Positions 12,168 through 55,940 of a DNA stretch of 64,000 nt are shown piece by piece; the stretch's first letter is position 1; the number at the start of each line of letters is the position of its first letter. Both the position numbers and the translations under genes were made by a program. This DNA is from Clostridiales bacterium. Lineage in GTDB: Bacteria > Bacillota > Dehalobacteriia > UBA4068. The DNA lies in the NCBI GenBank assembly GCA_040767605.1, contig JAXGOI010000001.1, positions 1,720,610 through 1,784,609 of the forward strand, in the 5' to 3' direction. The notes below the pieces were generated by a model. The model did no database searches, had not been told where the DNA came from, and was given only the letters and a program-made list of their open reading frames with translations.

Positions 12168-12168
12168 T

Positions 12169-16049: not shown

Positions 16050-16077
16050 GGATGTAATAAGATAAGCAAATAAAGGC

Positions 16078-16646: not shown

Positions 16647-16829
16647 ATGTCTGATCCCAAAATTGAAAGATGGTATTCATTAGAAGAAACTGCTGACTAT
16701 CTTGGGGTGAGTAAAGATACAATTTACAGATGGATTTCAGACAAGAAAATGCCAGCAACAAAAATTGGACGTCAATGGAAATTTAAACTGACTGAAGTTG
16801 ATGAGTGGATTAAACAAAGAAATCTATAA
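16647..16829 (+). CDS. Excisionase/AlpA-family HTH DNA-binding protein
   Basis: YSLEETADYLGVSKDTIYRWISDKKMPATKIGRQWKF is the Xis/AlpA-type (MerR-like) HTH. GGAGGTG RBS. 60 aa. Confidence 0.75.
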   Translation: MSDPKIERWYSLEETADYLGVSKDTIYRWISDKKMPATKIGRQWKFKLTEVDEWIKQRNL

Positions 16830-16859
16830 TATTAAGATTAGAATATTGGAGGAGATACT

Positions 16860-18974
16860 ATGAATAGTATAAAGTACAAAGATCTCATAACTGAATTATT
16901 ATTACAAGATGAGCGACTATGGAATGAAGGGAAAACTGAGTTTAATCAAGTACTTCTTTTTGATTTACTAGATAAAGTTGATGAAAAAATTATTGATTTA
17001 CTTTTACAAAACGAAGAAATTAGAAATAAGTTTTTCATTAAAATCAAAGATGTATATGTTTTTAAATCTAATGATTTCAAATTTTTTATGGAAGAAAATA
17101 AAATTAACAACTCATATACGGCATTTGAAAATATCATAGGCTTATCTGATGGTGATAGATTCATAAAGAATAGAGATGAAGTTGTTATTAATTTTCCTTT
17201 TAAAGATTGTGTTTTGGAAGGTGGACAATCAACAGAGGAAGGCGAAGATCAATACTATGAGTATACAGAAGAAAAAACTAAAACAGTAAATGGAGAAAAG
17301 GTGGTTGAGCCTGCAGGATTTAAAAGAAAAAATTCGAAAAGATCTGAGATATTTTTTAATGAAGTATTAGCTAATGATGAGCTTGACAGACTTAGAGATG
17401 AGAAAGCATTCGTAAACTGGAAAAGATACACAAGAAATTCCGAGGAAACAATAGGTCAAATTAAGAGAAATTCGGAAGGACTTATTAATGAAAATATTAT
17501 TATAAAGGGTAATAACTTATTAGCATTATATAGCTTAGAGAGTCAGTTTTCGAATTCAATAAAAATGGTATATATTGATCCACCTTATTATTTTTCAAGT
17601 ACGTCTAAGAGTAATGACTCATTTGTTTATAACACAAATTTTAAGCTTTCTACTTGGCTAGTGTTTATGAAGAACCGATTGGAGATTGCTTATAGATTAC
17701 TGCGAAATGATGGAGTTATTTTCGTAAGTATAGATGACGGGGGGCAAGCGTATCTTAAGGTATTAATGGATGAGATATTTGGAAAAGAAAACTTTATTTC
17801 AACACTACCAACAATTATGAATTTAAAAGGGAATAATGATGAATTTGGATTTTCTGGAACTCATGAATATACTCTTGTGTATGCTAAAAATAAGAGTAGT
17901 GCGTTAATTAATGAATTTCCTCTCGATGAAGAAGAACTTTTGAAGGAGTGGGAGGAAGATGAAATAGGTTATTACAAACGAGGGGCAACTCTCAAAAGAA
18001 CAGGAACCGATGCGCCAAGGGAAAAGCGACCATATGCATACTACCCAATACTAGTTAAAAATGGTGAAATAAATTCTATTGAAAAAGAAGAATTCGAGAG
18101 AATATTTAACAAAAACACAAAAACTTTTGATGACGATTTTGTGAGTGAGTTAAAAATAAAATATGAAAGCTTAGGATTTGAGTTCATACTCCCAACAATC
18201 TCAGATAATAAAACATCTTGGAGATGGCAATATTCTAAGGTGAAAAATGAGAGTAATGAAATTATTATTTCATTTTCTGGGGAGACTTCGTTTTATAAAA
18301 AACAGAGACCTCAATTAGGTGAAATTCCAACTAAAAAGCCTAAATCTATTTTTTATAAACCAGAATATAGTAGTGGCAATGGTACTAGACAAATTAAGGA
18401 TTATTTTGGCGAAAAAGTGTTTAACAATCCTAAACCTTTAGAACTCATCAGAGATTTTATTTTGCTAGCTACTAATGAGAATGACATCATATTAGATTTT
18501 CATGCTGGATCAGGAACAACCGGAGATGCTACAGTAAGACTTGGTGAAAACAGGAAGTTTATCCTGATTGAACAAATGGATTACGTAAAAGATGTTACGG
18601 TAGAGAGAGTTAGAAAAGCACTAGAATCAGAAAACAGTGACGATTCATTCATATATTTCGAACTTGCAGAGTTTAATGAAAAAGCTAAAAGAGAAATACT
18701 GCAATGCAAAAACCTACAAGAATTAGAGAAACTATTTGAGGAACTATATGAACACTATTTTTTAAACTACAACGTTAAAGTAGAAGAGTTTAAAAATAAT
18801 GTAATGAAAGATAAGAGATTCATTGAGTTATCTCTTGAAGAACAGCAAAATATGTTTCTTGCAATGTTAGATTTAAATCAGATGTATGTAAATAAGTCAG
18901 AGATGGAAGATAAAAGATATGGTATAAATGATGAAGAACAAGAATTGATAAAACGTTTTTATGAGGGGGTGTAA
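16860..18974 (+). CDS. mod: Type III restriction-modification system methyltransferase (Mod)
   Basis: 704 aa. Catalytic VYIDPPYYF (DPPY) before the C-terminal FxGxG motif LDFHAGSGTTG, the beta-class order typical of Type III Mod. Very AT-rich gene. Confidence 0.85.
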   Translation: MNSIKYKDLITELLLQDERLWNEGKTEFNQVLLFDLLDKVDEKIIDLLLQNEEIRNKFFIKIKDVYVFKSNDFKFFMEENKINNSYTAFENIIGLSDGDRFIKNRDEVVINFPFKDCVLEGGQSTEEGEDQYYEYTEEKTKTVNGEKVVEPAGFKRKNSKRSEIFFNEVLANDELDRLRDEKAFVNWKRYTRNSEETIGQIKRNSEGLINENIIIKGNNLLALYSLESQFSNSIKMVYIDPPYYFSSTSKSNDSFVYNTNFKLSTWLVFMKNRLEIAYRLLRNDGVIFVSIDDGGQAYLKVLMDEIFGKENFISTLPTIMNLKGNNDEFGFSGTHEYTLVYAKNKSSALINEFPLDEEELLKEWEEDEIGYYKRGATLKRTGTDAPREKRPYAYYPILVKNGEINSIEKEEFERIFNKNTKTFDDDFVSELKIKYESLGFEFILPTISDNKTSWRWQYSKVKNESNEIIISFSGETSFYKKQRPQLGEIPTKKPKSIFYKPEYSSGNGTRQIKDYFGEKVFNNPKPLELIRDFILLATNENDIILDFHAGSGTTGDATVRLGENRKFILIEQMDYVKDVTVERVRKALESENSDDSFIYFELAEFNEKAKREILQCKNLQELEKLFEELYEHYFLNYNVKVEEFKNNVMKDKRFIELSLEEQQNMFLAMLDLNQMYVNKSEMEDKRYGINDEEQELIKRFYEGV

Positions 18975-18977
18975 TGA

Positions 18978-21722: not shown

Positions 21723-21899
21723 AATTGAATTGATCATTGATGGAAAAAATGAGCTGTGAAATTGATAAAGCGTAGATAATAATCTTTTTTGTACATGAGA
21801 TGGTTGAATATAAATTATGAATGGGATTTTAATCATCTCATGACATTTAATTTACTCAGTTAAAAGTTATGCTGGGGACCGAAAGAGGCGAGGTAGAGT

Positions 21900-22394
21900 A
21901 TGTACACTATTAAAGGAAAGCAAGCTTCAAGGATTGAACCGGTCACTTTTTCAGAGTTAAATATGACTGAAAATGATATAAAAGAGATTCTAAGAAACAG
22001 CATTGATATGATCTGTGATGAAGAAGAATCCATGCTTATTGTTGGCAGGTAGGTCAGAAATAAATGGATAAGTCACTCATTACAACAGCATCTGGAGAAA
22101 AGAAAATTAAACGGAGGTCTCTACCGAAAATAGATTTAATGCTTGAAGGGTGTTGTTAAAGAAGGAGACATTATAGTTGCTAAAGGGATAGGAGATGAAG
22201 GAATGCTTCTTTCTAATGGCAGTGCAATGGTCAACGGAGAAGAAAAGTCTATGCAAGCATGGCTAAAAGAGATTTATGGATGGTTTAGCGTTCAGACTTA
22301 TGTTTTTGCTGTACATAAAGAAACAGGTAAAACTTTGTCTCAGATTCGTGAAGAATATATGGAAAAGAAAGTTACTGAAAGCACTGAATTATAA
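21900..22394 (+). pseudogene. Disrupted ~165-codon ORF of unknown function (three in-frame stop codons)
   Basis: One continuous reading frame opens with RBS GAGGCGAGG and ATG at 21900 (MYTIKGKQASRIEPVTFSELNMTENDIKEIL...). It is interrupted by TAG at 22050, TAG at 22134 and TAA at 22140, then continues in the same frame as the TTG-start 83-aa ORF 22143-22394. Confidence 0.4.
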
Positions 22395-22467
22395 AAAATA
22401 AGCAGTTGAGCTAATAGACTGAGTTTAATTATTTGTGGTCATTTCAAGAAATGGGGGGAGATTTCTT

Positions 22468-24354
22468 ATGTCAGGTAATCGTTCATTTACTGAATATGTA
22501 AAAAACTCATTTGATAATCAATTTTGGTCTGTTGCAGAAGAATATCTGTGTGAGAATGTCGATCCCTTGAATATCAAGCTTTTTAAAGTACATAAAGCTG
22601 GAGAGCCAGAAATTACAGATGTGCAAGTGGAACATGTTTGGGTTGAAGATTTACCAGAAAAGAAAATACAATTTGATGTGGCCTTATCCGTAATATTTGA
22701 AATCCCAGAAGCTGATTATCATTATGATGATTCAGAAGAAAAGAGAATATGGCTAATGGTTCGTTGTCGAGGAGATCTTAGTTGTAATCTCCAGGATTTC
22801 GAGATTTTTGAAGTTTCCGATTACACTGGGAAAAACCGTGTTAAAAATCCATTGGACGATTCGCTTGTTCCCTATATTCCATATGAAAAGCTAGATGAAG
22901 TGGCTACATCGTTTCTTAAAGAATATTACCCTGAAGCTCTTAAAATTACTCAATATAAGCAGGACCCTGTTTGGGTTGACCCCAATATCCTTACAGAAAG
23001 ACTTGGATTAACAATAAATACTCAACGCATAAGGGAAGATGCATCAGTATTCGGTCAGATATACTTTGTTGATACTGATGTAGAAATGTATGATTCCAAC
23101 ACTCAAAGTAATGTAGCTATGCAGATTGAAGGGAAAACTATTGTTGTCGATCCCTATATGTACTTACTTAGGAATCTAGGTTCTGTTAATAATACAATAA
23201 TACATGAGTGTGTACATTGGGTTAAGCATAGAAAAGTATTTGAACTGGAAAAACTATATAATGCAGCAGCCTCTCATATAAGCTGTGAAGTAAAAGGTGG
23301 GGCAATCTCAACGCTATCTAAGAAATCTACAGAATGGATGGAAAAGCAAGCTAACCAATTGACACCACGGATACAAATGCCAGCAGAACCTTTTAGAGTA
23401 AAGGCAAATCAATATATAGCACAATTTATGCGTGAATCGAATGCTAGGCACACGGTAGATGTGATGGAAAAAGTTATTACTGCATTGGAGACTAAATTTG
23501 CGGTATCTAAGCAAGCAGCAAAGATTCGACTTGTAGAGTTAGGCTTTGAGGAAGCTATTGGCACATTCACATATCTTGATGGTCGTTATGTAAAACCACA
23601 CGGTTTTCGTAAAGGGACAATCAAGGTAAATCAGACATTTTCTTTAAGTGCTCAGGACGCAGCTATTGAACGCTTTCTCAATCCTGAACTTCGTGCTCTA
23701 ACTGAAAATGGAGATTATCTCTTTGTAGATAACCATTATGTATACAATGCACCACTTTATGTAGAGCGTGATGAAAACGGAAAGTTAGAATTAACTGGAT
23801 ATGCCCGTTCTCATATGGACGAGTGTTGTCTTGTATTTGATATGAGAATCACTAGCAAGGTAGAGAACATATATCACACAGCATGCTTTTTAAATCGTGA
23901 ACTGAGTGACATCACATTTGAAATTAAGTATCATAATGGGTTTGAAAATGCACCGCAAGAACGTCAAGTCGCTATGCGAAAAAAAATTCAAGCTGAAGAA
24001 TTAGAGATTCGAAAACAGATGACTGACGATCCGGAACAGTGCCTGGAACTTCTTCTTAAATGGAGAGGTATGAATTATACTGACCTTGGTCTTGAAATTG
24101 ACCGTGATCCAAAGACTATTAGTCGTACGGTTAAGGGTAAAACTGCCCCTACAGTGGAGACCGCAGCACTTATATGCTTTGGTCTTCATCTCTCGCCTAC
24201 GATCAGTATGAAGTTGATGGACGTGTTTGGCTGCAAGCTGAACCCTATGAAATATCCTAATCATCAATGGATAAATGAGGCTTTATACATAAAATATCCA
24301 GAGCCAATATGGGCTATCCGGGAGTATTTAAGCCCATACGGAGTAGAAATTTAA
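22468..24354 (+). CDS. Large uncharacterised protein with an ImmA/IrrE-type (M78) HExxH metallopeptidase signature and a C-terminal HTH
   Basis: 628 aa from ATG 22468 after the RBS GGGGGGAG. Internal motif RNLGSVNNTIIHECVHWVKH resembles the ImmA/IrrE r.nFTiaHElgH signature. The C-terminal region LLKWRGMNYTDLGLEIDRDPKTISRTVKGKTAPTVETAALICFGLHL is HTH-like. The ~190-aa N-terminal domain and the middle domain are not recognised. Confidence 0.55.
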   Translation: MSGNRSFTEYVKNSFDNQFWSVAEEYLCENVDPLNIKLFKVHKAGEPEITDVQVEHVWVEDLPEKKIQFDVALSVIFEIPEADYHYDDSEEKRIWLMVRCRGDLSCNLQDFEIFEVSDYTGKNRVKNPLDDSLVPYIPYEKLDEVATSFLKEYYPEALKITQYKQDPVWVDPNILTERLGLTINTQRIREDASVFGQIYFVDTDVEMYDSNTQSNVAMQIEGKTIVVDPYMYLLRNLGSVNNTIIHECVHWVKHRKVFELEKLYNAAASHISCEVKGGAISTLSKKSTEWMEKQANQLTPRIQMPAEPFRVKANQYIAQFMRESNARHTVDVMEKVITALETKFAVSKQAAKIRLVELGFEEAIGTFTYLDGRYVKPHGFRKGTIKVNQTFSLSAQDAAIERFLNPELRALTENGDYLFVDNHYVYNAPLYVERDENGKLELTGYARSHMDECCLVFDMRITSKVENIYHTACFLNRELSDITFEIKYHNGFENAPQERQVAMRKKIQAEELEIRKQMTDDPEQCLELLLKWRGMNYTDLGLEIDRDPKTISRTVKGKTAPTVETAALICFGLHLSPTISMKLMDVFGCKLNPMKYPNHQWINEALYIKYPEPIWAIREYLSPYGVEI

Positions 24355-24371
24355 TTTTTTTCTTAAAAAAA

Positions 24372-24388
24372 TGGACAAGGTATGTCCA
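24372..24388. promoter_or_regulatory. Operator-like palindrome TGGACA-N5-TGTCCA
   Basis: Perfect 6-bp inverted arms. A second, related copy lies at 24611-24625. Confidence 0.35.
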
Positions 24389-24533
24389 CTATAAAGTTGA
24401 AAAAGTGACCTTCGACACAAAGATTTGGTCTCTTTTTTATTGGTAAGCATGATAAGCAATTGTCACCAACATTATATTAGTCAGTAAACTATGACTAATT
24501 AAAGAAACAACCGCAAATCAATTCATAAATAAT

Positions 24534-24592
24534 CGCCGGAGTTATCAAAGTAAGCCATTAAAGGCTGAAATAGATAACTCCGGCTTTTTTTA
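24534..24592 (+). terminator. Rho-independent terminator (long-loop)
   Basis: GCCGGAGTTATC...GATAACTCCGGC 12-bp inverted repeat followed by T7. Confidence 0.6.
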
Positions 24593-24610
24593 TTTTCATG
24601 GGTTTTGACA

Positions 24611-24625
24611 GGACATGGCATGTCC
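24611..24625. promoter_or_regulatory. Operator-like palindrome GGACAT-ggc-ATGTCC
   Basis: Perfect inverted repeat. Same GGACA-N5-TGTCC architecture as the site at 24372. Confidence 0.35.
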
Positions 24626-24814
24626 ATTTTCAAAAAAAAATCCGTGTTACATTTAGTTTATAGATAAGCAATATTGCTTTCTAAATAAATCTCAAAGTCC
24701 TAGTGCGCATACGGACGGCGGGATGCATAAGAGTTCAGAACACAGTGATAAAGACTGTGTTTGGAATGAAGATGCACCCACCGTTATTTCGTGTGCCCTT
24801 TTTTAGGACAAGCG

Positions 24815-31020: not shown

Positions 31021-31241
31021 CCGACCCTTATGAGCAACTTGCAAATGCTATTATCCTGCAAGCTGTTAAGGATTACAGAGATGCATTAAAGAAACTGAAA
31101 AAACGTCCCCGCTATGATCCTGCGAAGGACACAATAGCCGAGGTGGAGAGGTTCTTCCACTCAGATTGGTATAGAGAACTTACCTCTGTTGATGGGAATT
31201 TCCTAATAAAAAATTTAAGATCGGAGGTAAGAGAAGGATGA
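31017..31241 (+). CDS. Hypothetical phage protein
   Basis: 74-aa ORF translationally coupled to the helicase. Confidence 0.4.
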   Translation: MTDPYEQLANAIILQAVKDYRDALKKLKKRPRYDPAKDTIAEVERFFHSDWYRELTSVDGNFLIKNLRSEVREG

Positions 31242-31663
31242 AAGTAAAGGAATATTTACACCAAGCATATAGGCTTGATAAAAGAATACAGTCAGACATC
31301 GAGGAAATGGAGTGCCTTAGAGAAATGGCAACTAATGTATCCTCGCCAAGCTGGGATGAAAAGGTGCAAACCTCACGAAATACAGACGCCAAGTTTGTAA
31401 GATGTTTAGAGCGAATTATAGATTTGGAAAGTAAGATAAACGCGGAAGTGGATAACCTTGTAGCACTCAAAGAGCAGATAAGGAGTGTAATCAACGAGGT
31501 TGTAGACACGGATGAACGCATGGTTTTACGGTATCGGTATGTGCATAACTTCACTTGGGAACAAATCGGTGATGAACTCAATGCCGACAGAACGACAGTT
31601 TATAGGTGGCACAATGTAGCTCTTAACCATGTGACCCTTCCTGAAAATCCTATTAAAATATAG
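31238..31663 (+). CDS. ArpU-family/sigma-region-4-like phage late transcriptional regulator
   Basis: C-terminal ERMVLRYRYVHNFTWEQIGDELNADRTTVYRWHNVAL HTH. Sits immediately before the packaging genes. Confidence 0.6.
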   Translation: MKVKEYLHQAYRLDKRIQSDIEEMECLREMATNVSSPSWDEKVQTSRNTDAKFVRCLERIIDLESKINAEVDNLVALKEQIRSVINEVVDTDERMVLRYRYVHNFTWEQIGDELNADRTTVYRWHNVALNHVTLPENPIKI

Positions 31664-31798: not shown

Positions 31799-32158
31799 AT
31801 GCCAAGAAGTCCAAAGAAACCCTGTTCTTATCCAAACTGCCCCAACCTAACTGACAGTCGATTTTGTGAGAAACACGAATCACAAGACCGCAAACAATAC
31901 AACAAACACTCACGCAACCCCGATACCAATCGTAAATACGGCAGAGCGTGGAAAAGAATTCGTGACAGTTACATCGCCATACACCCGCTGTGTGAACGCT
32001 GTCAACGTGACGGCAATCTCACTCCTGCTGAAGAAGTACACCATAAGCTACCAGTTTCTCAAGGCGGACAGCATAATAGAGATAACTTGATGTCACTTTG
32101 TCGCTCTTGTCACAACAAGATGCATCTTGAAATTGGTGATAGGCAGATAAGACGGTAG
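31799..32158 (+). CDS. HNH endonuclease
   Basis: Cys-rich N-terminus and the HHKLPVSQGGQHNRDNLMSLCRSCHNKMH HNH motif. Precedes the small terminase. Confidence 0.85.
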   Translation: MPRSPKKPCSYPNCPNLTDSRFCEKHESQDRKQYNKHSRNPDTNRKYGRAWKRIRDSYIAIHPLCERCQRDGNLTPAEEVHHKLPVSQGGQHNRDNLMSLCRSCHNKMHLEIGDRQIRR

Positions 32159-32269
32159 GGGGATTGCTATCTCTACAACTTATAAAACGGACAGCGGCCT
32201 GGGGCTTCGCGTGTAAAAATCAGAAATCAAAGGGGGTATTAAAGACTTTTAGGAAAGTGGGGTGAAAAA

Positions 32270-32810
32270 CATGGCAAAAGACGGTACAGCAAGAGGCGGT
32301 CAGCGTGTTGGTGCTGGAAGAAAATCAAAGGCTCTAACCGACAAAATTGCTGACGGCAGATTAAATGGTGCCATGGTACTGCCAGAGCCAACGGATATAG
32401 AAGGTGCAGATGTGCCGGCTGTAAAAGACTATTTAAGGGCTACTCAAAAAAATGGCAAAGACCTCTGTGCAGGAGATATTTATATCGAAACTTACAAGTG
32501 GCTGAAAGATCGTAGCTGCGAAATGTTAGTAAACAACCAGCTAATCGAGCAGTATGCCATGAGTGTTTCTCGTTGGATTCAGTGTGAAGAGTGTATTTCA
32601 GAATATGGCTTTCTTGCAAAGCATCCAACCACTTCAGCAGCCATTGCGTCACCTTATGTTGCGATGAGTCGTGAATACATGAAACAGGTTAACCAGTGTT
32701 GGTATCAGATTTACCAAATTGTAAAAGAAAACTGCTCTGTGGAGTTCGGTGGAAGAAGTCCACAAGACGATTTGATGGAGCGCTTATTATCTGCTCGGAA
32801 AGGAAAATAA
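32270..32810 (+). CDS. Phage terminase small subunit (P27 family)
   Basis: N-terminus MAKDGTARGGQRVGAGRKSK is characteristic of P27-family TerS. Confidence 0.7.
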
Positions 32811-32811
32811 A

Positions 32812-33975
32812 ATGAAAAAATATAGAACGTGTGAAAGTGTATGTAAAGGTCATCCAGATAAATTATGTGACCTAATTTCAGATAGCATTTTAGATGCATG
32901 TTTAAGAAAAGATAAATCCTCTCGTGTTGCTTGCGAGGTGATGGCAACCAAAGGACACATCATTGTTGCCGGTGAGATCACCTGCTCAAAGAGAATTGAC
33001 ATTAGAGGTGTTGTCCGCCGTGTTCTTACGGATGTGGGCTACAATCCTAGAAAGTTTTTAGTCTTTGTCTATGTCCATCAACAAAGTAAAGATATTGCAG
33101 GCGGTGTGGATAGAGCTTTGGAATCTCGTGAAGGCGATACATCATGGTATTCCATGTTAGGTGCTGGTGACCAAGGTACAGTCTATGGCTATGCCACTAA
33201 CGAAACCAGTGAGAAGTTACCTCTCCCCTTAGTCTTATCTCATGCCATTTGCGAAAAGCTGGATAAAGTGATGAAGAATGGTGTGATTAAGGATATTGGT
33301 CCCGATGGTAAGGCTCAAGTGACGGTGGAATATGAAGGTGACAAACCAAAACGAATTAAGACCATCGTTGTCTCTGTTCAACACGGTGAAGATAAAGATT
33401 TAGATGTTTTGCGAAAGGAGGTCATCGCTCAGGTGCTGTGGCCAGTTTTTGAAAAATATCCATTTGATGATGAGACTGAGATCCTCATTAATCCTAGTGG
33501 ACGATTTGTCGAAGGCGGACCAGCAGCAGATACAGGGCTTACGGGAAGAAAAATCATGGTTGATACCTATGGTGGACTCGCCGCTCATGGTGGCGGTGCA
33601 TTTTCAGGAAAAGACCCGACAAAAGTTGACCGCAGTGGTGCCTATATGGCAAGGGCGATTGCAAAGAATATCGTTCGATGTGGCTTTGCTAAGCGATGCC
33701 AGGTAGCGATTTCCTATGCAATTGGAAAAGCAGATCCTGTTGCTCTTGAGATTGATACCTTTGGAACAGGGACGATTGAGGAAAGTACCCTTTGCCGTGC
33801 TGTGTTAGATGTATTCAATCTAAGACCTGCAGCCATTATCGAAAAGCTAAAACTGACGGATGTCATTTATGCAGATACGGCCACTTACGGCCATTTCAGG
33901 TATGGATTAAGCACTTGGGAGTTTTTGGATTGTTATACAGAACTAAGGGAGGCGGTAAACAAATATGTTGATTGA
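32812..33975 (+). CDS. metK: S-adenosylmethionine synthetase (MetK), phage-encoded
   Basis: 387 aa. ESVCKGHPDKLCDLISDSILDACL (cf. [21 protein letters not shown]), GAGDQG, and GGGAFSGKDPTKVDRSGAYMAR signature motifs. Confidence 0.9.
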   Translation: MKKYRTCESVCKGHPDKLCDLISDSILDACLRKDKSSRVACEVMATKGHIIVAGEITCSKRIDIRGVVRRVLTDVGYNPRKFLVFVYVHQQSKDIAGGVDRALESREGDTSWYSMLGAGDQGTVYGYATNETSEKLPLPLVLSHAICEKLDKVMKNGVIKDIGPDGKAQVTVEYEGDKPKRIKTIVVSVQHGEDKDLDVLRKEVIAQVLWPVFEKYPFDDETEILINPSGRFVEGGPAADTGLTGRKIMVDTYGGLAAHGGGAFSGKDPTKVDRSGAYMARAIAKNIVRCGFAKRCQVAISYAIGKADPVALEIDTFGTGTIEESTLCRAVLDVFNLRPAAIIEKLKLTDVIYADTATYGHFRYGLSTWEFLDCYTELREAVNKYVD

Positions 33976-35200
33976 AAAGAAGAATACAAAAGACCTCATC
34001 CCTGCAACATACAATCCTCGTAAAGATTTGAAACCTGGTGATGCAGAATACGAAAAGCTAAAACGATCCATTGAACAATTTGGTTATGTAGAGCCAGCTA
34101 TCTGGAATAAGGTGACCGGCCATGTTGTTGGTGGACACCAAAGACTGAAGGTTCTCATGGATATGGGTATTTCTGAAGTTGAGTGTGTTGTTATCGAAAT
34201 GGACGAAGAGAAAGAGAAAGCACTCAATATCGCACTCAATAAAATTAGCGGTGATTGGGATAAGGATAAATTAGCTCTTTTAATTGCAGATTTACAAGGT
34301 GTAGATTTTGATGTTTCCCTAACTGGATTTGACCCTAAAGAACTAGATGACTTATTTAAAGACACGCTGAAAGAGGGGATCCACGATGATGACTTTGATG
34401 TGGAGGAAGAACTAAAAAAACCAGCAATCAGTAAGTTTGGTGACATCTGGACGCTTGGCAGACACAGGCTTATCTGTGGTGACTCCACCCAGAAAGAAAC
34501 CTATGATCTGCTGATGAATAAAAAGAAGGCAAACTTGTGTGTAACAGATCCTCCCTACAATGTGAATTATGAAGGTGCTGCAGGTAAAATCAAAAATGAC
34601 CATATGGCAAATGATGCCTTCTACCAGTTCCTCTTAGACGCCTTTATCAATATCGAAGATGTTCTGGCAGACGATGCCTCCATCTATGTATTCCATGCCG
34701 ACACTGAAGGGTTTAATTTCAGAAAAGCCTTCTCGGATGCCGGTTTTTATTTGTCCGGCTGTTGTATCTGGAAAAAGGACTCCCTTGTACTGGGTCGCTC
34801 CCCTTATCAATGGCAGCACGAACCAGTGCTGTTTGGCTGGAAAAAGAAGGGCAAGCATCAGTGGTATACAGGCAGGAAAGAAACCACCATCTGGGAATTT
34901 GATAAGCCAAAGAGAAATGGTGACCATCCTACGATGAAGCCTATCCCTCTGCTCGCCTATCCAATTTTAAATTCCTCGATGACTAACACCATTGTGATAG
35001 ATCCTTTTGGTGGCAGTGGTAGTACCTTAATTGCTTGTGAACAATCAGAGCGCATTTGCTACACGGCAGAATTAGATGAGAAGTTTTGCGATGTCATCAT
35101 TAAACGCTACATTGAACAGGTCGGAACTTCTACTGATGTCAGCGTCCAAAGGGATGGGTTGAGCTACAACTATGATGAACTGGAGGTTGCTGATGGTTAA
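33965..35200 (+). CDS. ParB-like nuclease domain fused to an N6-adenine/N4-cytosine DNA methyltransferase
   Basis: N-terminal ParB/Srx-like motif (VGGHQRL). Catalytic TDPPYNV and a C-terminal FGGSGST SAM motif. Confidence 0.8.
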   Translation: MLIEKKNTKDLIPATYNPRKDLKPGDAEYEKLKRSIEQFGYVEPAIWNKVTGHVVGGHQRLKVLMDMGISEVECVVIEMDEEKEKALNIALNKISGDWDKDKLALLIADLQGVDFDVSLTGFDPKELDDLFKDTLKEGIHDDDFDVEEELKKPAISKFGDIWTLGRHRLICGDSTQKETYDLLMNKKKANLCVTDPPYNVNYEGAAGKIKNDHMANDAFYQFLLDAFINIEDVLADDASIYVFHADTEGFNFRKAFSDAGFYLSGCCIWKKDSLVLGRSPYQWQHEPVLFGWKKKGKHQWYTGRKETTIWEFDKPKRNGDHPTMKPIPLLAYPILNSSMTNTIVIDPFGGSGSTLIACEQSERICYTAELDEKFCDVIIKRYIEQVGTSTDVSVQRDGLSYNYDELEVADG

Positions 35201-36956
35201 TCTAACCCTTGGCAGTCTTTTTGATGGTTCAGGTGGTTTTCCTTTAGGCGGTTTAATTTCTGGTATTACCCCAGTATGGGCATCGGAGATTGAACCGTTT
35301 CCTATTAGGGTCACAACGAAAAGGCTGCCTTTTATAAAACATTACGGCGATATTTCTTACATGGATGGCAGTAAGATAGAACCGGTAGATATTATTACTT
35401 TTGGCTCACCTTGTCAGGATTTATCCATAGCAGGTAAGCGTGATGGCTTGGATGGTAAACGTTCAAGTCTTTTTTATGAAGCCATCCGAATTATAAAAGA
35501 AATGAGGTGTGCTACAGATGGCAAAAAACCAAGATATATTGTCTGGGAAAACGTCCCTGGGGCCTTCTCATCAAACAAAGGAGAAGATTTCAGATGTGTC
35601 CTTGAAGGCATCTGCCACATCAAGGATGAAACCTTATCAGTTCCTAAGATTGATAAATGGAAACAAGCAGGAACTATTGTGGGAGATCATTTTTCCCTTG
35701 CCTGGCGAGTACTTGACGCTCAATACTGGGGAGTTCCCCAACGAAGAAAACGCATCTTCCTTGTCGCAGATTTTGCAGGTGGGGGTGCCGGAGAAATACT
35801 ATTTAAGTCAGAAGGCTTGTCTGGGTATTCTAAAAAGAGCATCCGCTCGTGGCAAGGAACTGCCAGCAACTTTGCAGACAGCACTGGAGAGACAGGCACA
35901 ATCTGCTTAAATGACCAAGGCGGAGAACGCATGGATGTGACAACCGATATCACTTGCACTTTAAGAGCGAAATCAAATCATCCTCCTTGCATCATGGACT
36001 CTGCAGTTTTTGATAATCACGGAAAGGATACACGTTTTACTGGACCGATAGATGTTGCTCCTACGATTTCAGCGACCTATGGAACAGGAGGCAACAACCA
36101 ACCATTTGTTGTGGAGAATTCTAAGACTTATGATGTGCGATTTACCTCGGAAGGAACTGTAAATGCCCGTTCCAATGTTTACGAAAGTGATACGGCAAGA
36201 ACGATTGATACGTCGGGTAATGCACCGGACAGCAATCAAGGTGGTATTGCAGTGGTGGAATCTTATGGTTTACAAGGTTCTATGATAGGACGGGCAGACA
36301 AGAATGGACCTCAAGGTGCTGGTGTGAATGAAGAGCTTAGCTTTACTCTAAATACCGTAGATAAACACGCTGTGGTCTATGCAATTGATAGAGAGTCATT
36401 TAATTGCGGTCAAAACTATGCTAGAAACCTAGGAATTACTGAAGACGGAATTAATTCAACACTGAAGGCACAAGGCCCCAGTGCTGTTGCAACTCCTACC
36501 TATTCATCCAGTAAGGCATCGTTTTTTACAGATGCCAAAGAGGAACTGGCCAATACACTGGTTGCTACCGACTACAAGGATCCGCCACTTATCAATGATA
36601 ATGACGGGATAGATTATACGGTGAGAAGACTAACACCAACTGAGTGTGCAAGACTGCAAGGTTTTCCAGATTGGTGGTGCAGTGATTTAGGCATAGAGAC
36701 CCCAACGATGGATGACCTTCGGATTTGGTATGACATTTTTGAAACATTCCGTAAAGCAACGGGAGCGTACACCAAAACTAAGACACTGAAGCAAATCACG
36801 AAGTGGCTTAAAAACCCTCATTCGGATTCTGCAGAATATAAGATGTGGGGTAATGGATTAGCCCTGCCCAATGTATGTTTTGTCCTATCGGGCATTGTTT
36901 GGTTTACACAATTAGAAGAGAAATCTAAAGTCTCTTTTCTACACCTTAAAAGTTAG
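35193..36956 (+). CDS. DNA (cytosine-5)-methyltransferase
   Basis: Motif I FDGSGG, motif IV GSPCQDLS, motif VI ENV, and QRRKRIF. Long TRD/C-terminal extension. Confidence 0.85.
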   Translation: MVNLTLGSLFDGSGGFPLGGLISGITPVWASEIEPFPIRVTTKRLPFIKHYGDISYMDGSKIEPVDIITFGSPCQDLSIAGKRDGLDGKRSSLFYEAIRIIKEMRCATDGKKPRYIVWENVPGAFSSNKGEDFRCVLEGICHIKDETLSVPKIDKWKQAGTIVGDHFSLAWRVLDAQYWGVPQRRKRIFLVADFAGGGAGEILFKSEGLSGYSKKSIRSWQGTASNFADSTGETGTICLNDQGGERMDVTTDITCTLRAKSNHPPCIMDSAVFDNHGKDTRFTGPIDVAPTISATYGTGGNNQPFVVENSKTYDVRFTSEGTVNARSNVYESDTARTIDTSGNAPDSNQGGIAVVESYGLQGSMIGRADKNGPQGAGVNEELSFTLNTVDKHAVVYAIDRESFNCGQNYARNLGITEDGINSTLKAQGPSAVATPTYSSSKASFFTDAKEELANTLVATDYKDPPLINDNDGIDYTVRRLTPTECARLQGFPDWWCSDLGIETPTMDDLRIWYDIFETFRKATGAYTKTKTLKQITKWLKNPHSDSAEYKMWGNGLALPNVCFVLSGIVWFTQLEEKSKVSFLHLKS

Positions 36957-37023
36957 AAATAGCTTGCTATAGTAGTGGTTTAGAGTGATATATGTACATA
37001 CCAAAACAAAGGAGGTTTTGTAC

Positions 37024-37713
37024 ATGGTTATTAAATATAACGTAACAGGAGCAGACCGAAAAAGGCTAGTTACAACACTGAGCAAGATTACAGGTGTGAA
37101 AGCAAAGTATCTAGGAATGCCTAGCATGGCTTATGAGGTGGGGGATTTTATCATCGACAAGAATGGAACACTTGAACTGACTGGCAAGGCAGAAGGCGAA
37201 AAAATCGAACGTGTGGCAGGACATTTAGCCAGCGAGGGTTTTATTGCTGAGGAAGAGACGAGCGCCACAGAGGGCAAACAAAGGGCAGACAGCGAGGAGT
37301 TTGGTCTTACAGTTTCCATGCCAAGGAGCAACTTTTCTGAAGGCGCACTTGAAAACTTACAAGCACTTGTTGAGGCAAAAGGAGAACTAATTCGTCATGC
37401 ACTTGATGTAGAAGAATTGCCGATTGAAATTTCTGAAGATGAAGTTTCATTTCCTTGGTTTGAAGAGTTACCAACACCAGAAGAGATTAAAGCATATACC
37501 CACTTCATTTCAGCCTTATCAGAGATGGCGATAAATCAGAAACGCATCACGGTGAAAGAGAAAGAAGTAGAGAATGAAAAATACGCCTTCAGATGCTTTT
37601 TACTCCGCCTTGGCTTTATTGGAAAAGACTATAAAGATGAGCGAAAAATACTGCTTAGAAACCTGACAGGTTCATCGGCATTTAAAGGAGGAGCAAAAAA
37701 TGAGGATAATTAG
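37024..37713 (+). CDS. Hypothetical MGE-associated protein
   Basis: 230 aa. The conserved-looking block YAFRCFLLRLGFIGKDY appears in Firmicutes ICE/phage cargo. RBS AAAGGAGG. Confidence 0.45.
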   Translation: MVIKYNVTGADRKRLVTTLSKITGVKAKYLGMPSMAYEVGDFIIDKNGTLELTGKAEGEKIERVAGHLASEGFIAEEETSATEGKQRADSEEFGLTVSMPRSNFSEGALENLQALVEAKGELIRHALDVEELPIEISEDEVSFPWFEELPTPEEIKAYTHFISALSEMAINQKRITVKEKEVENEKYAFRCFLLRLGFIGKDYKDERKILLRNLTGSSAFKGGAKNEDN

Positions 37714-37930
37714 TAAAGAACGGTTACAAAATCTTCGTGAGAAGTACCCTGTAGGCTGCCGAGTAGAATTACTAAGAATGGATGATATTCAAGCTCCAAT
37801 GATTGGCACAAAAGGAACAGTCATAGGTGTTGATGACATCGGCTCCATAATGGTGTCTTGGGATACAGGCTCCAGTTTATCCGTAGTCTTTGGAGAAGAC
37901 CTTTGCAGGAGGGTTGAAGATGACAAGTAA
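37700..37930 (+). CDS. DUF4314-like protein
   Basis: VGCRVELLRMDDIQAPMIGTKGTVIGVDDIGSIMVSWDTGSSLSVVFGED pattern. Confidence 0.45.
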   Translation: MRIISKERLQNLREKYPVGCRVELLRMDDIQAPMIGTKGTVIGVDDIGSIMVSWDTGSSLSVVFGEDLCRRVEDDK

Positions 37931-38099
37931 GATAAAAGAGCAGATTCTTGCCATTCGAGATTCTGGTGAAACCAATATGTTTGATGTGCGAAAAGTACAG
38001 GAAATCGCTCTGAGGGAAGGATATGACGAGCTACTTGTTTACCTTGCAGATAACGTGGGGGCCTATTCCAGATTCATTCTGACAGGCAAGGAGGAATAA
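37920..38099 (+). CDS. Hypothetical small phage protein
   Basis: 59 aa after the GGAGGG RBS. Confidence 0.35.
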   Translation: MTSKIKEQILAIRDSGETNMFDVRKVQEIALREGYDELLVYLADNVGAYSRFILTGKEE

Positions 38100-38103
38100 A
38101 ACC

Positions 38104-38328
38104 GTGTGGAAAGAAGGTAGCATTAAAGTTCATGATAGCATTATCCATTATTGGGTAAAGTGCTATGAGAAAAGCTCGAAACTTGGCATTGACAAAGGAC
38201 GCATCTCAAAGCTGATGCTTAAGCGCAAGGAAGAGATTATTGCAAATTATGACCGAGGCTGGGACATTGAGCCTGTGGATGAGGATGCAGAAATTGCACT
38301 TGCAATCTTATTATTAGAACACAACTAA
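38104..38328 (+). CDS. Hypothetical small phage protein
   Basis: 74 aa, GTG start. Confidence 0.35.
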   Translation: MWKEGSIKVHDSIIHYWVKCYEKSSKLGIDKGRISKLMLKRKEEIIANYDRGWDIEPVDEDAEIALAILLLEHN

Positions 38329-38431
38329 ATAGCAATAGAGAACAGTGCCAACATTGGCTCTGTTTCTCGTATAGAAAGAGTAATAAGGCTTGCTTGATGC
38401 GGGTCTATTTTTATGCTCATTTTGAAGGGAG

Positions 38432-40042
38432 GTGACCGCAATTAGAAAACTAAAGAAATATAAACCGACACCTTTTATGGCTAAGGACTCTATCTACGAT
38501 AAAGACGCTGCAGATTATGCGGTCAACTTTATTGAGTGTTTAAGTCATACCAAGGGGAAATGGTCTGGAAAACCATTTGAACTGATTGATTGGCAAGAAC
38601 AAATTATTAGAGACCTCTTTGGCACACTGAAACCAGATGGCTATCGGCAGTTTAATACGGCCTATATTGAGATTCCTAAGAAAATGGGGAAATCTGAATT
38701 AGCGGCAGCTGTCGCACTACTGCTTACTTGTGGTGATGGTGAAGAAAGAGCCGAGGTTTATGGTTGCGCCGCAGACAGGCAACAGGCATCCATTGTTTTT
38801 GAAGTGGCTGCTGACATGGTGCGTATGAGTCCGGCACTGAGTAAACGAGTCAAAATCTTATCGGCAACAAAACGGATCATTTTCCAACCGACTAATAGTT
38901 TTTATCAAGTGCTTTCAGCAGAGGCCTATTCAAAGCATGGATTTAATATTCATGGTGTTGTTTTTGATGAGCTGCATACTCAGCCCAATAGAAAACTCTT
39001 TGATGTCATGACCAAAGGTTCTGGTGATGCCAGAACACAGCCCCTATATTTTCTGATCACCACGGCAGGATCTGATACAAAATCAATCTGCTATGAAACC
39101 CATCAGAAAGCCAAAGATCTCATGGAGAAAAGAAAGATTGACCCTACTTTTTATCCGGTTATTTATGGAGCAGATGAGTCAGATGATTGGACCGATCCGA
39201 AGGTGTGGAAAAAAGCTAATCCAAGCCTTGGCATAACGGTAGGGATTGATAAGGTAAAAGCCGCTTGTGAATCAGCCAAGCAAAACCCTGCAGAAGAGAA
39301 TGCCTTTAGACAGTTACGACTTAATCAGTGGGTCAAACAGGCGGTTCGCTGGATGCCAATGGACAGGTGGGATAAATGTGCCTTTGCCGTAAATGAAGAG
39401 GATTTACTTGGAAGGGTATGCTATGGCGGACTAGACCTTTCCAGCTCCATTGATATTACTGCCTTTGTATTGGTGTTTCCTCCCCTAGATGAGGATGATA
39501 AATACATCATTCTTCCCTACTTTTGGCTGCCAGAAGAAACTCTAAGTGCCAGGGTCAACCGTGACCATGTTCCCTATGATGTCTGGGAAAAGCAAGGACA
39601 GCTTAAAACAACGGAAGGCAATGTGGTCCATTACGGTTTTATTGAGAAGTTCATCGAAGAACTTGGCGAAAAGTACAATATTCGTGAGATTGCCTTTGAC
39701 CGTTGGGGAGCCGTACAAATGGTTCAAAACCTAGAAGGCATGGGTTTTACCGTAGTCCCCTTTGGTCAGGGATTTAAGGATATGAGTCCACCGACTAAGG
39801 AACTGATGAAACTAACGCTAGAGGAAAAGGTTGCTCATGGTGGGCATCCAGTACTTCGTTGGATGATGGATAACATTTTTGTTCGAACGGACCCGGCAGG
39901 AAACATCAAGCCAGATAAGGAAAAATCATCAGAAAAAATTGATGGTGCAGTGGCAACGATTATGGCTCTTGATCGAGCGATTCGTTGTGGCAATGATACG
40001 AGTGCTTCGGTTTATGACAACCGAGGCATTCTCTTTATATGA
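38432..40042 (+). CDS. Phage terminase large subunit
   Basis: 536 aa. N-terminal ATPase region (IEIPKKMGKSELAAAVALLLT...VFDELH) and a C-terminal nuclease. GTG start after the GAAGGGAGG RBS. Confidence 0.85.
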   Translation: MTAIRKLKKYKPTPFMAKDSIYDKDAADYAVNFIECLSHTKGKWSGKPFELIDWQEQIIRDLFGTLKPDGYRQFNTAYIEIPKKMGKSELAAAVALLLTCGDGEERAEVYGCAADRQQASIVFEVAADMVRMSPALSKRVKILSATKRIIFQPTNSFYQVLSAEAYSKHGFNIHGVVFDELHTQPNRKLFDVMTKGSGDARTQPLYFLITTAGSDTKSICYETHQKAKDLMEKRKIDPTFYPVIYGADESDDWTDPKVWKKANPSLGITVGIDKVKAACESAKQNPAEENAFRQLRLNQWVKQAVRWMPMDRWDKCAFAVNEEDLLGRVCYGGLDLSSSIDITAFVLVFPPLDEDDKYIILPYFWLPEETLSARVNRDHVPYDVWEKQGQLKTTEGNVVHYGFIEKFIEELGEKYNIREIAFDRWGAVQMVQNLEGMGFTVVPFGQGFKDMSPPTKELMKLTLEEKVAHGGHPVLRWMMDNIFVRTDPAGNIKPDKEKSSEKIDGAVATIMALDRAIRCGNDTSASVYDNRGILFI

Positions 40043-55925: not shown

Positions 55926-55940
55926 ATGGAGGAAAATCAC

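What the first reader, a model, noticed from the sequence alone, without database searches (positions are those of the whole stretch)
32270..38431. Phage-encoded SAM synthetase (MetK) plus two orphan DNA methyltransferases inserted between the terminase small and large subunits
TerS (32270) and TerL (38432) are normally adjacent. Here they are separated by ~5.6 kb containing metK (full-length, with all signature motifs), a ParB-domain-N6/N4 MTase fusion, a 594-aa C5-cytosine MTase and four small MGE-type proteins (DUF4314 and others).

A virus carrying its own SAM synthetase next to two DNA MTases suggests an anti-restriction package that secures methyl-donor supply during replication. Alternatively MetK could modulate host SAM-dependent defences.

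The same element also carries a Type III restriction system, which raises the question of how its own DNA is protected after induction.
Basis: partly seen in the sequence, partly recalled or inferred. Interest (0 to 1): 0.6.

Follow-up and report, generated by a model that had tools for sequence, protein, structure and literature searches.

The report
Prophage methylation module with own MetK
A prophage of an already described, widely spread Gram-positive phage group carries a SAM synthetase and two DNA methyltransferases between its two packaging genes; the genes are real, but the layout is the group's normal one and has been reported before.

Summary
On the + strand, tightly packed, lie HNH, TerS, a full-length MetK, a ParB_N–N6/N4 methyltransferase, a 594-aa C5 methyltransferase, a 229/242-aa 'virulence protein', DUF4314, DUF5049, DUF7678 and TerL. 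TerS and TerL are 5.6 kb apart.

The 'cargo inserted between adjacent terminase genes' reading is not supported. In 39 of 39 relatives chosen by TerL alone, TerS is 1.6–9.4 kb from TerL. The ParB-methyltransferase (36/39), DUF4314 (35/39) and the 242-aa protein (33/39) fill most of the gap. Block GC (0.42–0.44) matches the rest of the phage.

Only two parts vary: the slot after TerS, which holds a MetK-like gene in 21/39, and the C5 methyltransferase (20/39), here a discrete 1.77-kb cassette.

The prophage is a close relative of Streptococcus phage Javan630 and Erysipelothrix phage phi1605 (φEr670-like, Ca. Heliusvirales), next to rlmD. MetK with methyltransferases is annotated in over 100 phage records, and the methyl-donor idea was published in 2014.

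MetK looks functional: metK equivalog score passed, catalytic residues kept, dN/dS about 0.04. Its role remains untested.

Verdict: new member of a known kind, modest interest.

The parts
31238..31663 (+). DUF1492 / sigma-70 region 4-like protein, the probable late-gene activator just upstream of the packaging operon
   Evidence: Pfam DUF1492 E=3.5e-11 and Sigma70_r4. NCBIfam sigma-70 superfamily hit is weak. A homologous DUF1492/DUF722 gene occupies the same position in relatives. The regulatory role is inferred.
31799..32158 (+). HNH endonuclease of the packaging-associated type
   Evidence: Pfam HNH E=3.9e-14; phrog_144 E=8.5e-32. It lies directly before TerS in all relatives examined.
32262..32810 (+). 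Terminase small subunit, Terminase_4/P27 family. The likely true start is the ATG at 32271.
   Evidence: Pfam Terminase_4 31.5 bits against a cut-off of 24.7; phrog_83 E=1.8e-30. No other TerS-like ORF lies next to TerL.
32812..33975 (+). Phage-encoded methionine adenosyltransferase (MetK, SAM synthetase), 387 aa
   Evidence: Three Pfam domains. TIGR01034 equivalog 472.7 bits against 309.4. PDB MetKs match at E=1e-117. Catalytic residues are conserved relative to E. coli. dN/dS is 0.036-0.048. It belongs to phrog_1569.
33965..35200 (+). ParB_N-domain / beta-class N6-adenine or N4-cytosine DNA methyltransferase fusion, orphan
   Evidence: N6_N4_Mtase 94 bits; phrog_498 E=1.4e-186; phrog_620 ParB-like E=2.5e-48. 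DPPY and FGGSGST motifs are present. PADLOC MTase_II PDLC03229 E=1.8e-200. Present in 36/39 relatives.
35172..36956 (+). C5-cytosine DNA methyltransferase, 594 aa, orphan. It is a discrete accessory cassette (35187-36956) relative to Javan630.
   Evidence: PF00145 E=4.5e-41. Motifs I, IV (PCQ), VI (ENV), VIII (QRR) and IX align to M.HhaI. PADLOC orphan MTase PDLC03715 E=2.9e-201. Present in 20/39 relatives.
36985..37713 (+). 242-aa protein (229 aa from the ATG at 37024), called 'virulence protein' in public annotation; function unknown
   Evidence: No Pfam, NCBIfam or PADLOC hit. It matches part of phrog_2443. Present in 33/39 relatives. Homologues at 92% identity or more occur in Listeria, Enterococcus and Erysipelothrix. 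The AF2 model was unusable.
37700..37930 (+). DUF4314 protein
   Evidence: Pfam E=2.2e-30. Present in 35/39 relatives.
37890..38099 (+). DUF5049 protein
   Evidence: Pfam E=1.5e-27. Present in 25/39 relatives.
38104..38328 (+). DUF7678 protein
   Evidence: Pfam E=2.5e-32. Present in 20/39 relatives.
38432..40042 (+). Terminase large subunit
   Evidence: TerL_ATPase and TerL_nuclease domains; phrog_9 E=9e-192. It is 99% identical to the Javan630 TerL.

Best explanation
The block is not an insertion. It is the standard front end of the late (packaging) operon in a known, widely spread group of rlmD-integrating prophages of Gram-positive bacteria: the Javan630, phi1605 and φEr670-like phages, within Ca. 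Heliusvirales.

In this group terS and terL are always split by a DNA self-methylation module. Its near-constant core is a ParB_N–N6A/N4C methyltransferase plus small proteins of unknown function. Two slots vary: a SAM-synthetase slot directly after terS, and a C5-methyltransferase cassette.

Most likely mechanism (inferred, not shown):
1. After induction, the DUF1492/sigma-like regulator switches on one long transcript running HNH–terS–metK–MTases–…–terL.
2. The two orphan methyltransferases modify the replicating phage DNA just before and during packaging. Virions therefore enter the next host pre-methylated against Type II-like restriction.
3. The phage MetK makes SAM locally. Methyl-donor supply, and relief from limits on the host's own MetK, then do not restrict full methylation of about a hundred genome copies.

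Shown: gene identities, conserved catalytic residues, purifying selection, conserved order, and which parts are variable. Inferred: co-transcription, timing, the methylation targets, and that SAM supply is limiting.
For: Gene identities.

MetK:
- It keeps H15, D17, K18, E43, D119, K166, D239, R245, K246, K266, K270 and D272 of E. coli MetK.
- It scores above the metK equivalog cut-off and matches solved MetKs at E=1e-117.
- dN/dS is 0.036-0.048 for MetK, 0.03-0.05 for the ParB-methyltransferase and 0.07 for the C5 methyltransferase.

Architecture:
- In 39/39 TerL-anchored IMG/VR relatives TerS and TerL are 1.6-9.4 kb apart (median 5.4 kb). ParB-methyltransferase is present in 36/39, DUF4314 in 35/39 and the 242-aa protein in 33/39.
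- A MetK-like gene sits immediately after TerS in 21/39.
- The same order is seen around MetKs that are 71-84% identical, in phages with other replication modules, and in phi1605 and Javan630.
- Genes abut or overlap, and no promoter or terminator signal exceeds chance.
- Block GC is 0.42-0.44, equal to the phage core. The Type III island is 0.30 and tet(M) 0.37.

Literature:
- The Φ1207.3 paper proposes MetK as methyl-donor source for the C5 methyltransferase (PMC4260502).
- MetK is in 58.9% and C5 methyltransferase in 67% of Ca. Heliusvirales genomes (PMC11283538).
- φEr670-like prophages lie next to rlmD in many genera (PMC12785378).
Against: - No expression, methylation or SAM measurement exists for any of these phages in the literature searched.
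- Presence of a MetK-like gene does not track the number of methyltransferases. The C5 methyltransferase is present in 9 of 21 MetK-like-positive loci and 11 of 18 MetK-like-negative loci (derived). About half of the relatives manage without any MetK.
- Many relatives carry a much reduced 218-261-aa MetK-like protein whose activity is unknown.
- Methylation targets are unknown, so the SAM demand cannot be computed.
- The TerS assignment rests on profile matches only.
Confidence: 0.6

Rival explanations
1. One reading: a one-off anti-restriction cargo island was inserted between terS and terL, which had been adjacent.
For: TerS and TerL are adjacent in most tailed phages, and in the related Φ1207.3. 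The C5 methyltransferase is a genuine 1.77-kb cassette absent from Javan630. MetK is present in only some relatives.
Against: 39/39 TerL-anchored relatives have split terminase genes with the same core occupants. The order is identical in MetK-anchored contigs. Block GC is indistinguishable from the phage core. Only two of the eight intervening genes behave as cassettes.
Confidence: 0.05
2. MetK is a counter-defence or takeover factor rather than a feeder for the methyltransferases. It would keep SAM synthesis going when the host enzyme is shut off, depleted or inhibited (for example by competing SAM-degrading elements or host responses). Alternatively it could form mixed oligomers with host MetK to change its regulation.
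For: Presence of a MetK-like gene is not correlated with the C5 methyltransferase. Phages are known to target host MetK and SAM in the opposite direction: T3 SAMase does so (PMC8406200 and bioRxiv 10.1101/2023.02.27.530186). MetK is an obligate oligomer with active sites at subunit interfaces (established knowledge).
Against: No SAM-depleting host defence was found in the literature searched. Raising SAM would, if anything, help SAM-dependent restriction (Type I, Type III, BREX). In the relatives examined MetK is directly followed by the ParB-methyltransferase in most cases (18 of 21 loci, all); one extra ORF intervenes in L024, L067 and phi1605.
Confidence: 0.15
3. MetK is an auxiliary metabolic gene that benefits the lysogen's or the infected cell's general methyl metabolism. 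It would be unrelated to DNA methylation.
For: Virome papers list it as an auxiliary metabolic gene of cysteine/methionine metabolism.
Against: It sits inside the late packaging operon, coupled 1 nt after terS. It is not at the prophage ends, where the real cargo lies (Type III R-M, tet(M)). No own promoter is detectable above chance. The host presumably has its own essential metK elsewhere (inference).
Confidence: 0.1
4. The MetK-like protein has a non-catalytic, structural or DNA-packaging-linked role together with TerS and HNH.
For: The MetK-like gene is next to HNH or TerS in both lineages: terS-metK here, metK-HNH in Φ1207.3. It also occurs in strongly reduced 218-261-aa forms.
Against: Every catalytic residue is conserved even in the mini forms. 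dN/dS of 0.04 across the whole enzyme is typical of an active enzyme. It passes the equivalog threshold.
Confidence: 0.05

Closest known systems
Streptococcus phage Javan630 (MK448997), Erysipelothrix phage phi1605 (MF172979) and the φEr670-like prophages (PMC12785378)
   Same: Nucleotide identity is 85-97% over the replication, packaging, structural and lysis modules. The order HNH–TerS–MetK–ParB-MTase–'virulence protein'–small DUFs–TerL is the same. Integration is next to the 23S rRNA m5U methyltransferase gene rlmD/rum. tet(M) follows the lysis genes, as in phi1605.
   Different: The window additionally carries the 1.77-kb C5 methyltransferase cassette, which Javan630 lacks and which was not seen in the annotated stretch of phi1605. 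Its left-end cargo is different: a Type III R-M in a 30%-GC island plus a 639-aa ORF. The host is an unnamed Bacillota lineage.
Φ1207.3 / Φm46.1 family of streptococcal rum-integrating prophages
   Same: They carry MetK, HNH, a ParB-methyltransferase and a C5 methyltransferase between the replication genes and TerL. The authors proposed MetK as methyl-donor source.
   Different: The order there is MetK–HNH–orf31–ParB-MTase–C5-MTase–small ORFs–TerS–TerL, so TerS is adjacent to TerL. MetK is a shorter form (353 aa, 46-47% identity). The two TerS proteins are only marginally similar.
Ca. Heliusvirales (de Jonge et al. 2022 and 2024)
   Same: The marker set is present: TerL, portal, SNF2 helicase, DUF2800 nuclease and family-A polymerase. 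phi1605 is listed as a member. MetK and C5 methyltransferase are reported as the commonest 'auxiliary' genes.
   Different: In the passages read, the papers do not describe the split-terminase layout or the three size classes of MetK. Membership of this exact window was not tested with their HMMs.
T3/T7-type SAM lyase (SAMase) anti-restriction
   Same: A phage manipulates the SAM pool in the context of restriction and BREX.
   Different: The direction is opposite: T3 destroys SAM and inhibits host MetK, whereas this phage makes SAM. There is no sequence relationship.
Orphan phage DNA methyltransferases used for self-protection (for example the Bacillus phage SPR/φ3T multispecific C5 methyltransferases; from general knowledge)
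   Same: Orphan C5 and N6/N4 methyltransferases with no partner nuclease, best matched by PADLOC's orphan-MTase model.
   Different: The long region between motifs VIII and IX (about 283 aa) shows no internal repeat. It is collinear across relatives of 530-770 aa. A multispecific architecture is therefore not supported.

Membership tests
Methionine adenosyltransferase (MetK, EC 2.5.1.6) | N-terminal, central and C-terminal S-AdoMet synthetase domains in order | tested here: met
   PF00438, PF02772 and PF02773, all far above their cut-offs. The N-domain match stops at 80 of 99 positions because of a 7-residue deletion before the gating loop.
Methionine adenosyltransferase (MetK, EC 2.5.1.6) | Score above NCBI's curated equivalog threshold | tested here: met
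   TIGR01034 scores 472.7 bits against a cut-off of 309.4.
Methionine adenosyltransferase (MetK, EC 2.5.1.6) | Catalytic and metal/phosphate-binding residues of E. coli MetK (His14, Asp16, Glu42, Asp118, Lys165, Asp238, Arg244, Lys245, Lys265, Lys269, Asp271 in mature numbering) | tested here: met
   All are invariant in the alignment with E. coli K-12 MetK taken from NC_000913.3. GAGDQG, DTGLTGRKI and GGGAFSGKD are read directly in the sequence.
Methionine adenosyltransferase (MetK, EC 2.5.1.6) | SAM synthesis activity and oligomeric assembly | not testable with these tools
   This needs an enzyme assay or metK complementation.
C5-cytosine DNA methyltransferase | Motifs I (FxGxG), IV (PCQ catalytic Cys), VI (ENV), VIII (QRR), IX and X | tested here: met
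   Alignment to M.HhaI covers motifs I-VI, VIII and IX. GNG near the C-terminus is read directly. PF00145 E=4.5e-41.
Orphan (solitary) methyltransferase | No cognate restriction endonuclease gene adjacent | tested here: met
   The neighbours are MetK, the other methyltransferase and small DUF proteins. The best PADLOC model for the C5 enzyme is 'oMTase'. The nearby HNH is of the terminase-associated kind by its position in all relatives; its function is inferred.
Beta-class N6A/N4C DNA methyltransferase fused to ParB_N | Motif IV (D/S)PP(Y/F) before motif I FxGxG; N6_N4_Mtase domain | tested here: met
   DPPY lies at about residue 195 and FGGSGST at about residue 350. PF01555 scores 94 bits against 26.7.
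Beta-class N6A/N4C DNA methyltransferase fused to ParB_N | ParB N-terminal domain | tested here: inconclusive
   Pfam ParB_N scores 22.5 bits, below its cut-off of 26.3. However phrog_620 'ParB-like' gives E=2.5e-48 over residues 1-158, and relatives are annotated ParB_N.
Terminase small subunit (Terminase_4 / P27 family) | Profile match above the curated threshold | tested here: met
   PF05119 scores 31.5 bits against 24.7; phrog_83 E=1.8e-30. DNA recognition is not testable here.
Javan630 / phi1605 / φEr670-like prophage group | High nucleotide identity across core modules | tested here: met
   85.6% and 96.1% over the two aligned pieces spanning 31-41.5 kb. 89% over the early region. 95-97% over the structural, lysis and polymerase region.
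Javan630 / phi1605 / φEr670-like prophage group | Integration next to the 23S rRNA (uracil-C5) methyltransferase gene rlmD/rum | tested here: met
   A TRAM + tRNA_U5-meth_tr gene at 14676-16049 is the last host gene before the element. The feature is described in PMC12785378. The right end, with its serine recombinases, lies outside the window.
Ca. Heliusvirales | Nine marker genes: TerL, portal, capsid, protease, polymerase/exonuclease, helicase, nuclease and two others | tested here: inconclusive
   TerL, portal, SNF2 helicase, DUF2800 nuclease and PolA are found. Capsid and protease are inferred from 95% identity to Javan630. The authors' HMMs and the TerL score of at least 700 bits were not available.
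Type III restriction-modification system (same element) | Mod and Res subunits together | tested here: met
   TypeIII_RM_meth + N6_N4_Mtase, and ResIII. PADLOC MTase_III E=1.7e-185 and REase_III E=7.4e-103.

The most novel reading that the evidence does not exclude
The slot directly behind terS may be a dedicated 'SAM-synthetase slot' of this phage lineage. It is filled by full-length (387-393 aa), medium (about 345 aa) or drastically reduced (218-261 aa) MetK-like enzymes that all keep the catalytic residues.

If the reduced forms are active, they would be the smallest known methionine adenosyltransferases. The conserved metK to ParB-methyltransferase adjacency next to terS could then reflect a physically coupled 'make SAM, methylate, package' unit. 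Such a unit might explain how near-identical prophages persist in hosts as far apart as Listeria, Enterococcus, Erysipelothrix, Streptococcus and Clostridia.
Probability: 0.15. Interest if true: 0.65.

Novelty: new member of a known kind. Interest (0 to 1): 0.3.

Why it matters
As found, this is an ordinary member of a described prophage group, and the idea attached to it is already in print.

What remains open is of general interest. More than half of a very common order of gut and animal-associated phages carry a SAM synthetase, and nobody has shown why. These prophages also carry resistance genes, here tet(M). They occur nearly unchanged in several bacterial classes. A self-sufficient methylation kit is therefore a plausible contributor to the spread of resistance genes across restriction barriers.

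The survey narrows the experiment. MetK and the C5 methyltransferase are the natural presence/absence variables. Close natural pairs such as this phage and Javan630 already differ by exactly one cassette.

Tried and rejected
1. Host identification.
- A GTDB-representative scan with the rlmD product found nothing above 41% identity.
- An exact look-up of the window's MetK found nothing on record.

2. Promoter and terminator scan of 31.0-40.2 kb. Counts were at chance level (16 against 17.6±3.9; 9 against 7.4±3.1). There is thus no sequence evidence for or against internal transcription units.

3. Structure of the 229-aa 'virulence protein'. The single-sequence AF2 model had pLDDT 51.5 and was unusable, so no fold search was run. 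The homologue search returned only sequences at least 91% identical, too shallow for an alignment.

4. Multispecific C5 methyltransferase idea. The long region between motifs VIII and IX has no internal repeat and is collinear in relatives, so the idea was rejected as unsupported.

5. Second TerS in Φ1207.3. orf31, which sits at the equivalent position, is not similar to the window's TerS.

6. Association of MetK with methyltransferase count. None is visible.

7. Literature searches for experimental work on phage-encoded MetK. They found only annotation-level mentions and the opposite strategy, T3 SAMase.

8. Rfam and tRNA scans. Nothing lies in the block.

Full report
**1. What is there**

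From 31.2 to 41.4 kb the + strand carries an uninterrupted run of genes. In order they are:
- a DUF1492/sigma-region-4 protein (31238-31663)
- an HNH endonuclease (31799-32158)
- a Terminase_4/P27-type small terminase subunit (32262-32810; the likely start is the ATG at 32271)
- MetK (32812-33975)
- a ParB_N–N6/N4 methyltransferase (33965-35200)
- a 594-aa C5 methyltransferase (35172-36956)
- a 242-aa protein with no Pfam family (36985-37713)
- DUF4314, DUF5049 and DUF7678
- TerL (38432-40042) and the portal gene

Spacing is tight. There is 1 nt between terS and metK, and overlaps of 11, 29, 14 and 41 nt elsewhere. The only gaps are 4, 28 and 103 nt. The distance between TerS and TerL is 5,621 bp.

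**2. Are the enzymes intact?**

MetK:
- It has all three S-AdoMet synthetase domains.
- It exceeds NCBI's metK equivalog threshold, 472.7 against 309.4 bits.
- It matches solved bacterial MetKs at E=1e-117.
- Aligned with E. coli K-12 MetK taken from NC_000913.3, it keeps His14, Asp16, Glu42, Asp118, Lys165, Asp238, Arg244, Lys245, Lys265, Lys269 and Asp271.
- The one visible difference is a 7-residue deletion before the gating loop.
- Against close relatives, dN/dS is 0.036-0.048.

C5 methyltransferase:
- It aligns to M.HhaI across motifs I, IV (PCQ), VI (ENV), VIII (QRR) and IX.
- About 283 residues lie between motifs VIII and IX. That stretch has no internal repeat and is collinear in relatives of 530-770 aa. 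I found no support for a multispecific enzyme.

ParB-methyltransferase:
- It has DPPY followed by FGGSGST, the beta-class order.

Neither methyltransferase has a nuclease partner. PADLOC's best model for the C5 enzyme is its 'orphan MTase'.

**3. Is it cargo inserted between adjacent terminase genes?**

No. I anchored a survey on TerL alone, so as not to select for MetK. More than 600 IMG/VR stretches matched, and the best 80 (TerL 83-99% identical) were kept.

Thirty-nine of these loci contain a complete TerS upstream of TerL. In all 39 the two genes are separated, by 1.6-9.4 kb with a median of 5.4 kb. The occupants of the gap are:

| Gene | Loci (of 39) |
|---|---|
| ParB-methyltransferase | 36 |
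| DUF4314 | 35 |
| 242-aa protein | 33 |
| DUF5049 | 25 |
| C5 methyltransferase | 20 |
| DUF7678 | 20 |

Contigs found through MetK relatives (71-84% identical) show the same order even where the replication module is different. That order is regulator–HNH–TerS–MetK–ParB-MTase–(C5 MTase)–245-aa protein–DUF4314–…–TerL. Erysipelothrix phage phi1605 and Streptococcus phage Javan630 show it too.

Composition agrees. The block has GC 0.42-0.44, like the rest of the phage (0.41-0.44). The genuine cargo stands out: the Type III R-M at 0.30 and tet(M) at 0.37.

**4. What is variable**

Two things vary.

(a) The C5 methyltransferase. Homology to Javan630 stops at 35186 and resumes at 36957. Javan630 has 49 bp where the window has 1.77 kb.

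(b) The slot directly after TerS. Among the 39 loci it holds:
- a long MetK of 387-393 aa, as in the window, in 5 loci
- a MetK of about 345 aa in 3 loci
- a 218-261-aa MetK-like protein in 13 loci
- a 52-56-aa ORF in 9 loci
- nothing, or only short ORFs, in 9 loci

That gives a MetK-like gene in 21/39, or 54%. This is close to the 58.9% reported for Ca. Heliusvirales. The mini form falls in the same PHROG as the long form (phrog_1569) and keeps all the catalytic residues listed above. No solved structure of such a short form exists.

In relatives the interval also collects other accessory genes: Nmad4, GGACT, Amidoligase_2, a PAPS-reductase-like gene, a SLOG domain, thioredoxin and an IS element.

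**5. What the element is**

The window's prophage is a close relative of Javan630 and phi1605:
- 85.6% and 96.1% identity over the two aligned pieces spanning 31-41.5 kb
- 89% over the early genes, starting at about 24,683
- 95-97% over the structural, lysis and polymerase genes

The last host gene before it is a TRAM/tRNA-U5-methyltransferase gene (14676-16049). This is the rlmD/rum site described for φEr670-like prophages, which occur in Erysipelothrix, Thomasclavelia, Streptococcus, Anaerotignum and Eubacterium (PMC12785378). phi1605 is listed among the founding members of Ca. Heliusviridae (PMC9226167).

MetK homologues are present in 138 deposited phage records, 90 of them streptococcal. 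The cluster of sequences at least 90% identical to the window's MetK has 760 members, including Listeria, Erysipelothrix and Christensenellaceae. The 242-aa protein is at least 92% identical in Enterococcus, Listeria, Erysipelothrix and a Negativicutes MAG.

In the related Φ1207.3 the same enzymes lie upstream of an adjacent TerS-TerL pair. [quoted passage not shown]

**6. Mechanism**

The best-supported reading is a self-methylation module built into the start of the late operon.

The regulator upstream, the absence of promoter or terminator signals above chance and the overlapping genes all suggest co-expression with the packaging genes. The orphan methyltransferases would then modify concatemeric DNA as it is packaged, and MetK would raise the local SAM supply.

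A rough plausibility argument follows; it is inference with textbook-order numbers, not a result. A methyltransferase with a 4-bp target needs a few hundred methyl groups per 50-kb genome. A burst of about 100 genomes with two enzymes could then consume a sizeable fraction of a SAM pool of the order of 10^5 molecules per cell.

Against a strict coupling, presence of a MetK-like gene does not correlate with having the second methyltransferase. About half of the relatives have no MetK at all. I put 0.6 on the overall model: about 0.9 on the architectural part and about 0.5 on the SAM-supply role.

The rivals are listed separately: counter-defence or host-MetK manipulation, a general metabolic gene, and a non-catalytic role.

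**7. The Type III system**

Mod (16860-18974) and Res (18978-21722) are complete. They lie in a 29.8%-GC island between rlmD and the start of homology to the related phages. This is the variable left-end region, where Φ1207.3 carries its SpyI R-M and Javan630 other genes.

One metagenome contig has the same rlmD–HTH–Mod–Res order, and another breaks at the end of rlmD. The right attachment site is outside the window. Whether the island is inside the prophage borders is therefore likely but not proven.

Self-protection needs no special explanation. From established knowledge, the system's own Mod methylates the lysogen's DNA, prophage included.

**8. Verdict**

This is a new member of a known kind, differing from published relatives by the C5 methyltransferase cassette and the left-end cargo. 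Interest is modest.

The most useful new points are:
- the quantified demonstration that split terminase genes are the lineage's norm
- the identification of the two cassette positions
- the side observation of a size series of MetK-like enzymes in the same slot

Noticed in passing
Related loci, e.g. L011:5856-6641, L021:5856-6641, L024:6014-6670, L029:3080-, L048:6845-; mid-size forms L049:3690-4727, L050:3060-4097, L067:577-1611: The slot right after TerS holds MetK-like proteins in three size classes: 387-393, about 345 and 218-261 aa. The 261-aa form keeps every catalytic residue of E. coli MetK and belongs to phrog_1569, but it lacks large parts of the central and C-terminal domains and the gating loop. 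No solved structure of such a short form was found.
   Followed up: partly
window 55285-58606 (tet(M) ORF 55926-57860; Rfam sRNA_0030 at 55721-55885): A Tn916-type tet(M) segment is inserted after the lysis genes. It includes the leader region and small regulator genes, has 37% GC and is 95% identical to enterococcal plasmid copies. The position is the same as in Erysipelothrix phage phi1605.
   Followed up: partly
window 16050-24680: This is the variable left-end region. It holds a small HTH_17 gene and a complete Type III R-M in a 29.8%-GC island. It also holds a 639-aa ORF (22435-24354) with no family except a weak CapP-like metallopeptidase hit (E=6.7e-07). Homology to Javan630 and phi1605 starts only at about 24683.
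   Followed up: partly
window 59322-63047 and beyond the right edge: DUF2800/PD-(D/E)XK nuclease, a 183-aa ORF and a family-A DNA polymerase follow the lysis/tet(M) region. In Javan630 three serine recombinases come next. The prophage therefore runs past the end of the window, and its replication genes are split across both ends of the integrated map.
   Followed up: partly
Protein clusters of window 32812-33975 and 36985-37713: Near-identical copies occur in genomes named Listeria monocytogenes/innocua, Enterococcus, Erysipelothrix rhusiopathiae, Streptococcus uberis, Christensenellaceae and Negativicutes. MetK copies are at least 90% identical and copies of the 242-aa protein at least 92%. 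This is an unusually wide host spread for one phage module.
   Followed up: partly
TerS-TerL interval of related loci (e.g. L166:13465-15820, L164:13554-15198, L007:4223-5068, L017:5266-8131): The interval is a collecting place for other accessory genes. Those seen are Amidoligase_2, GGACT, Nmad4 (16 of 39 loci), a PAPS-reductase-like gene, a SLOG domain, thioredoxin, an unassigned 363-aa protein and an IS element.
   Followed up: partly
window 32812-37930 compared with L003: Synonymous divergence to the closest IMG/VR relative differs strongly between adjacent genes: MetK 0.31, ParB-MTase 0.49, the 242-aa protein 0.23, DUF4314 0.02. This points to recombination mosaicism inside the block.
   Followed up: no
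window 14378-14486 (-): A TPP riboswitch lies upstream of the host thiM-thiE-thiD operon (genes).
   Followed up: no
window 1-16049 (host flank): The host could not be named. ThiD is 100% identical only to an unnamed 1.86-Mb NCBI contig and three sequencing runs, and the next relative is 71% identical. The rlmD product is at most 41% identical to any GTDB species representative found.
   Followed up: yes
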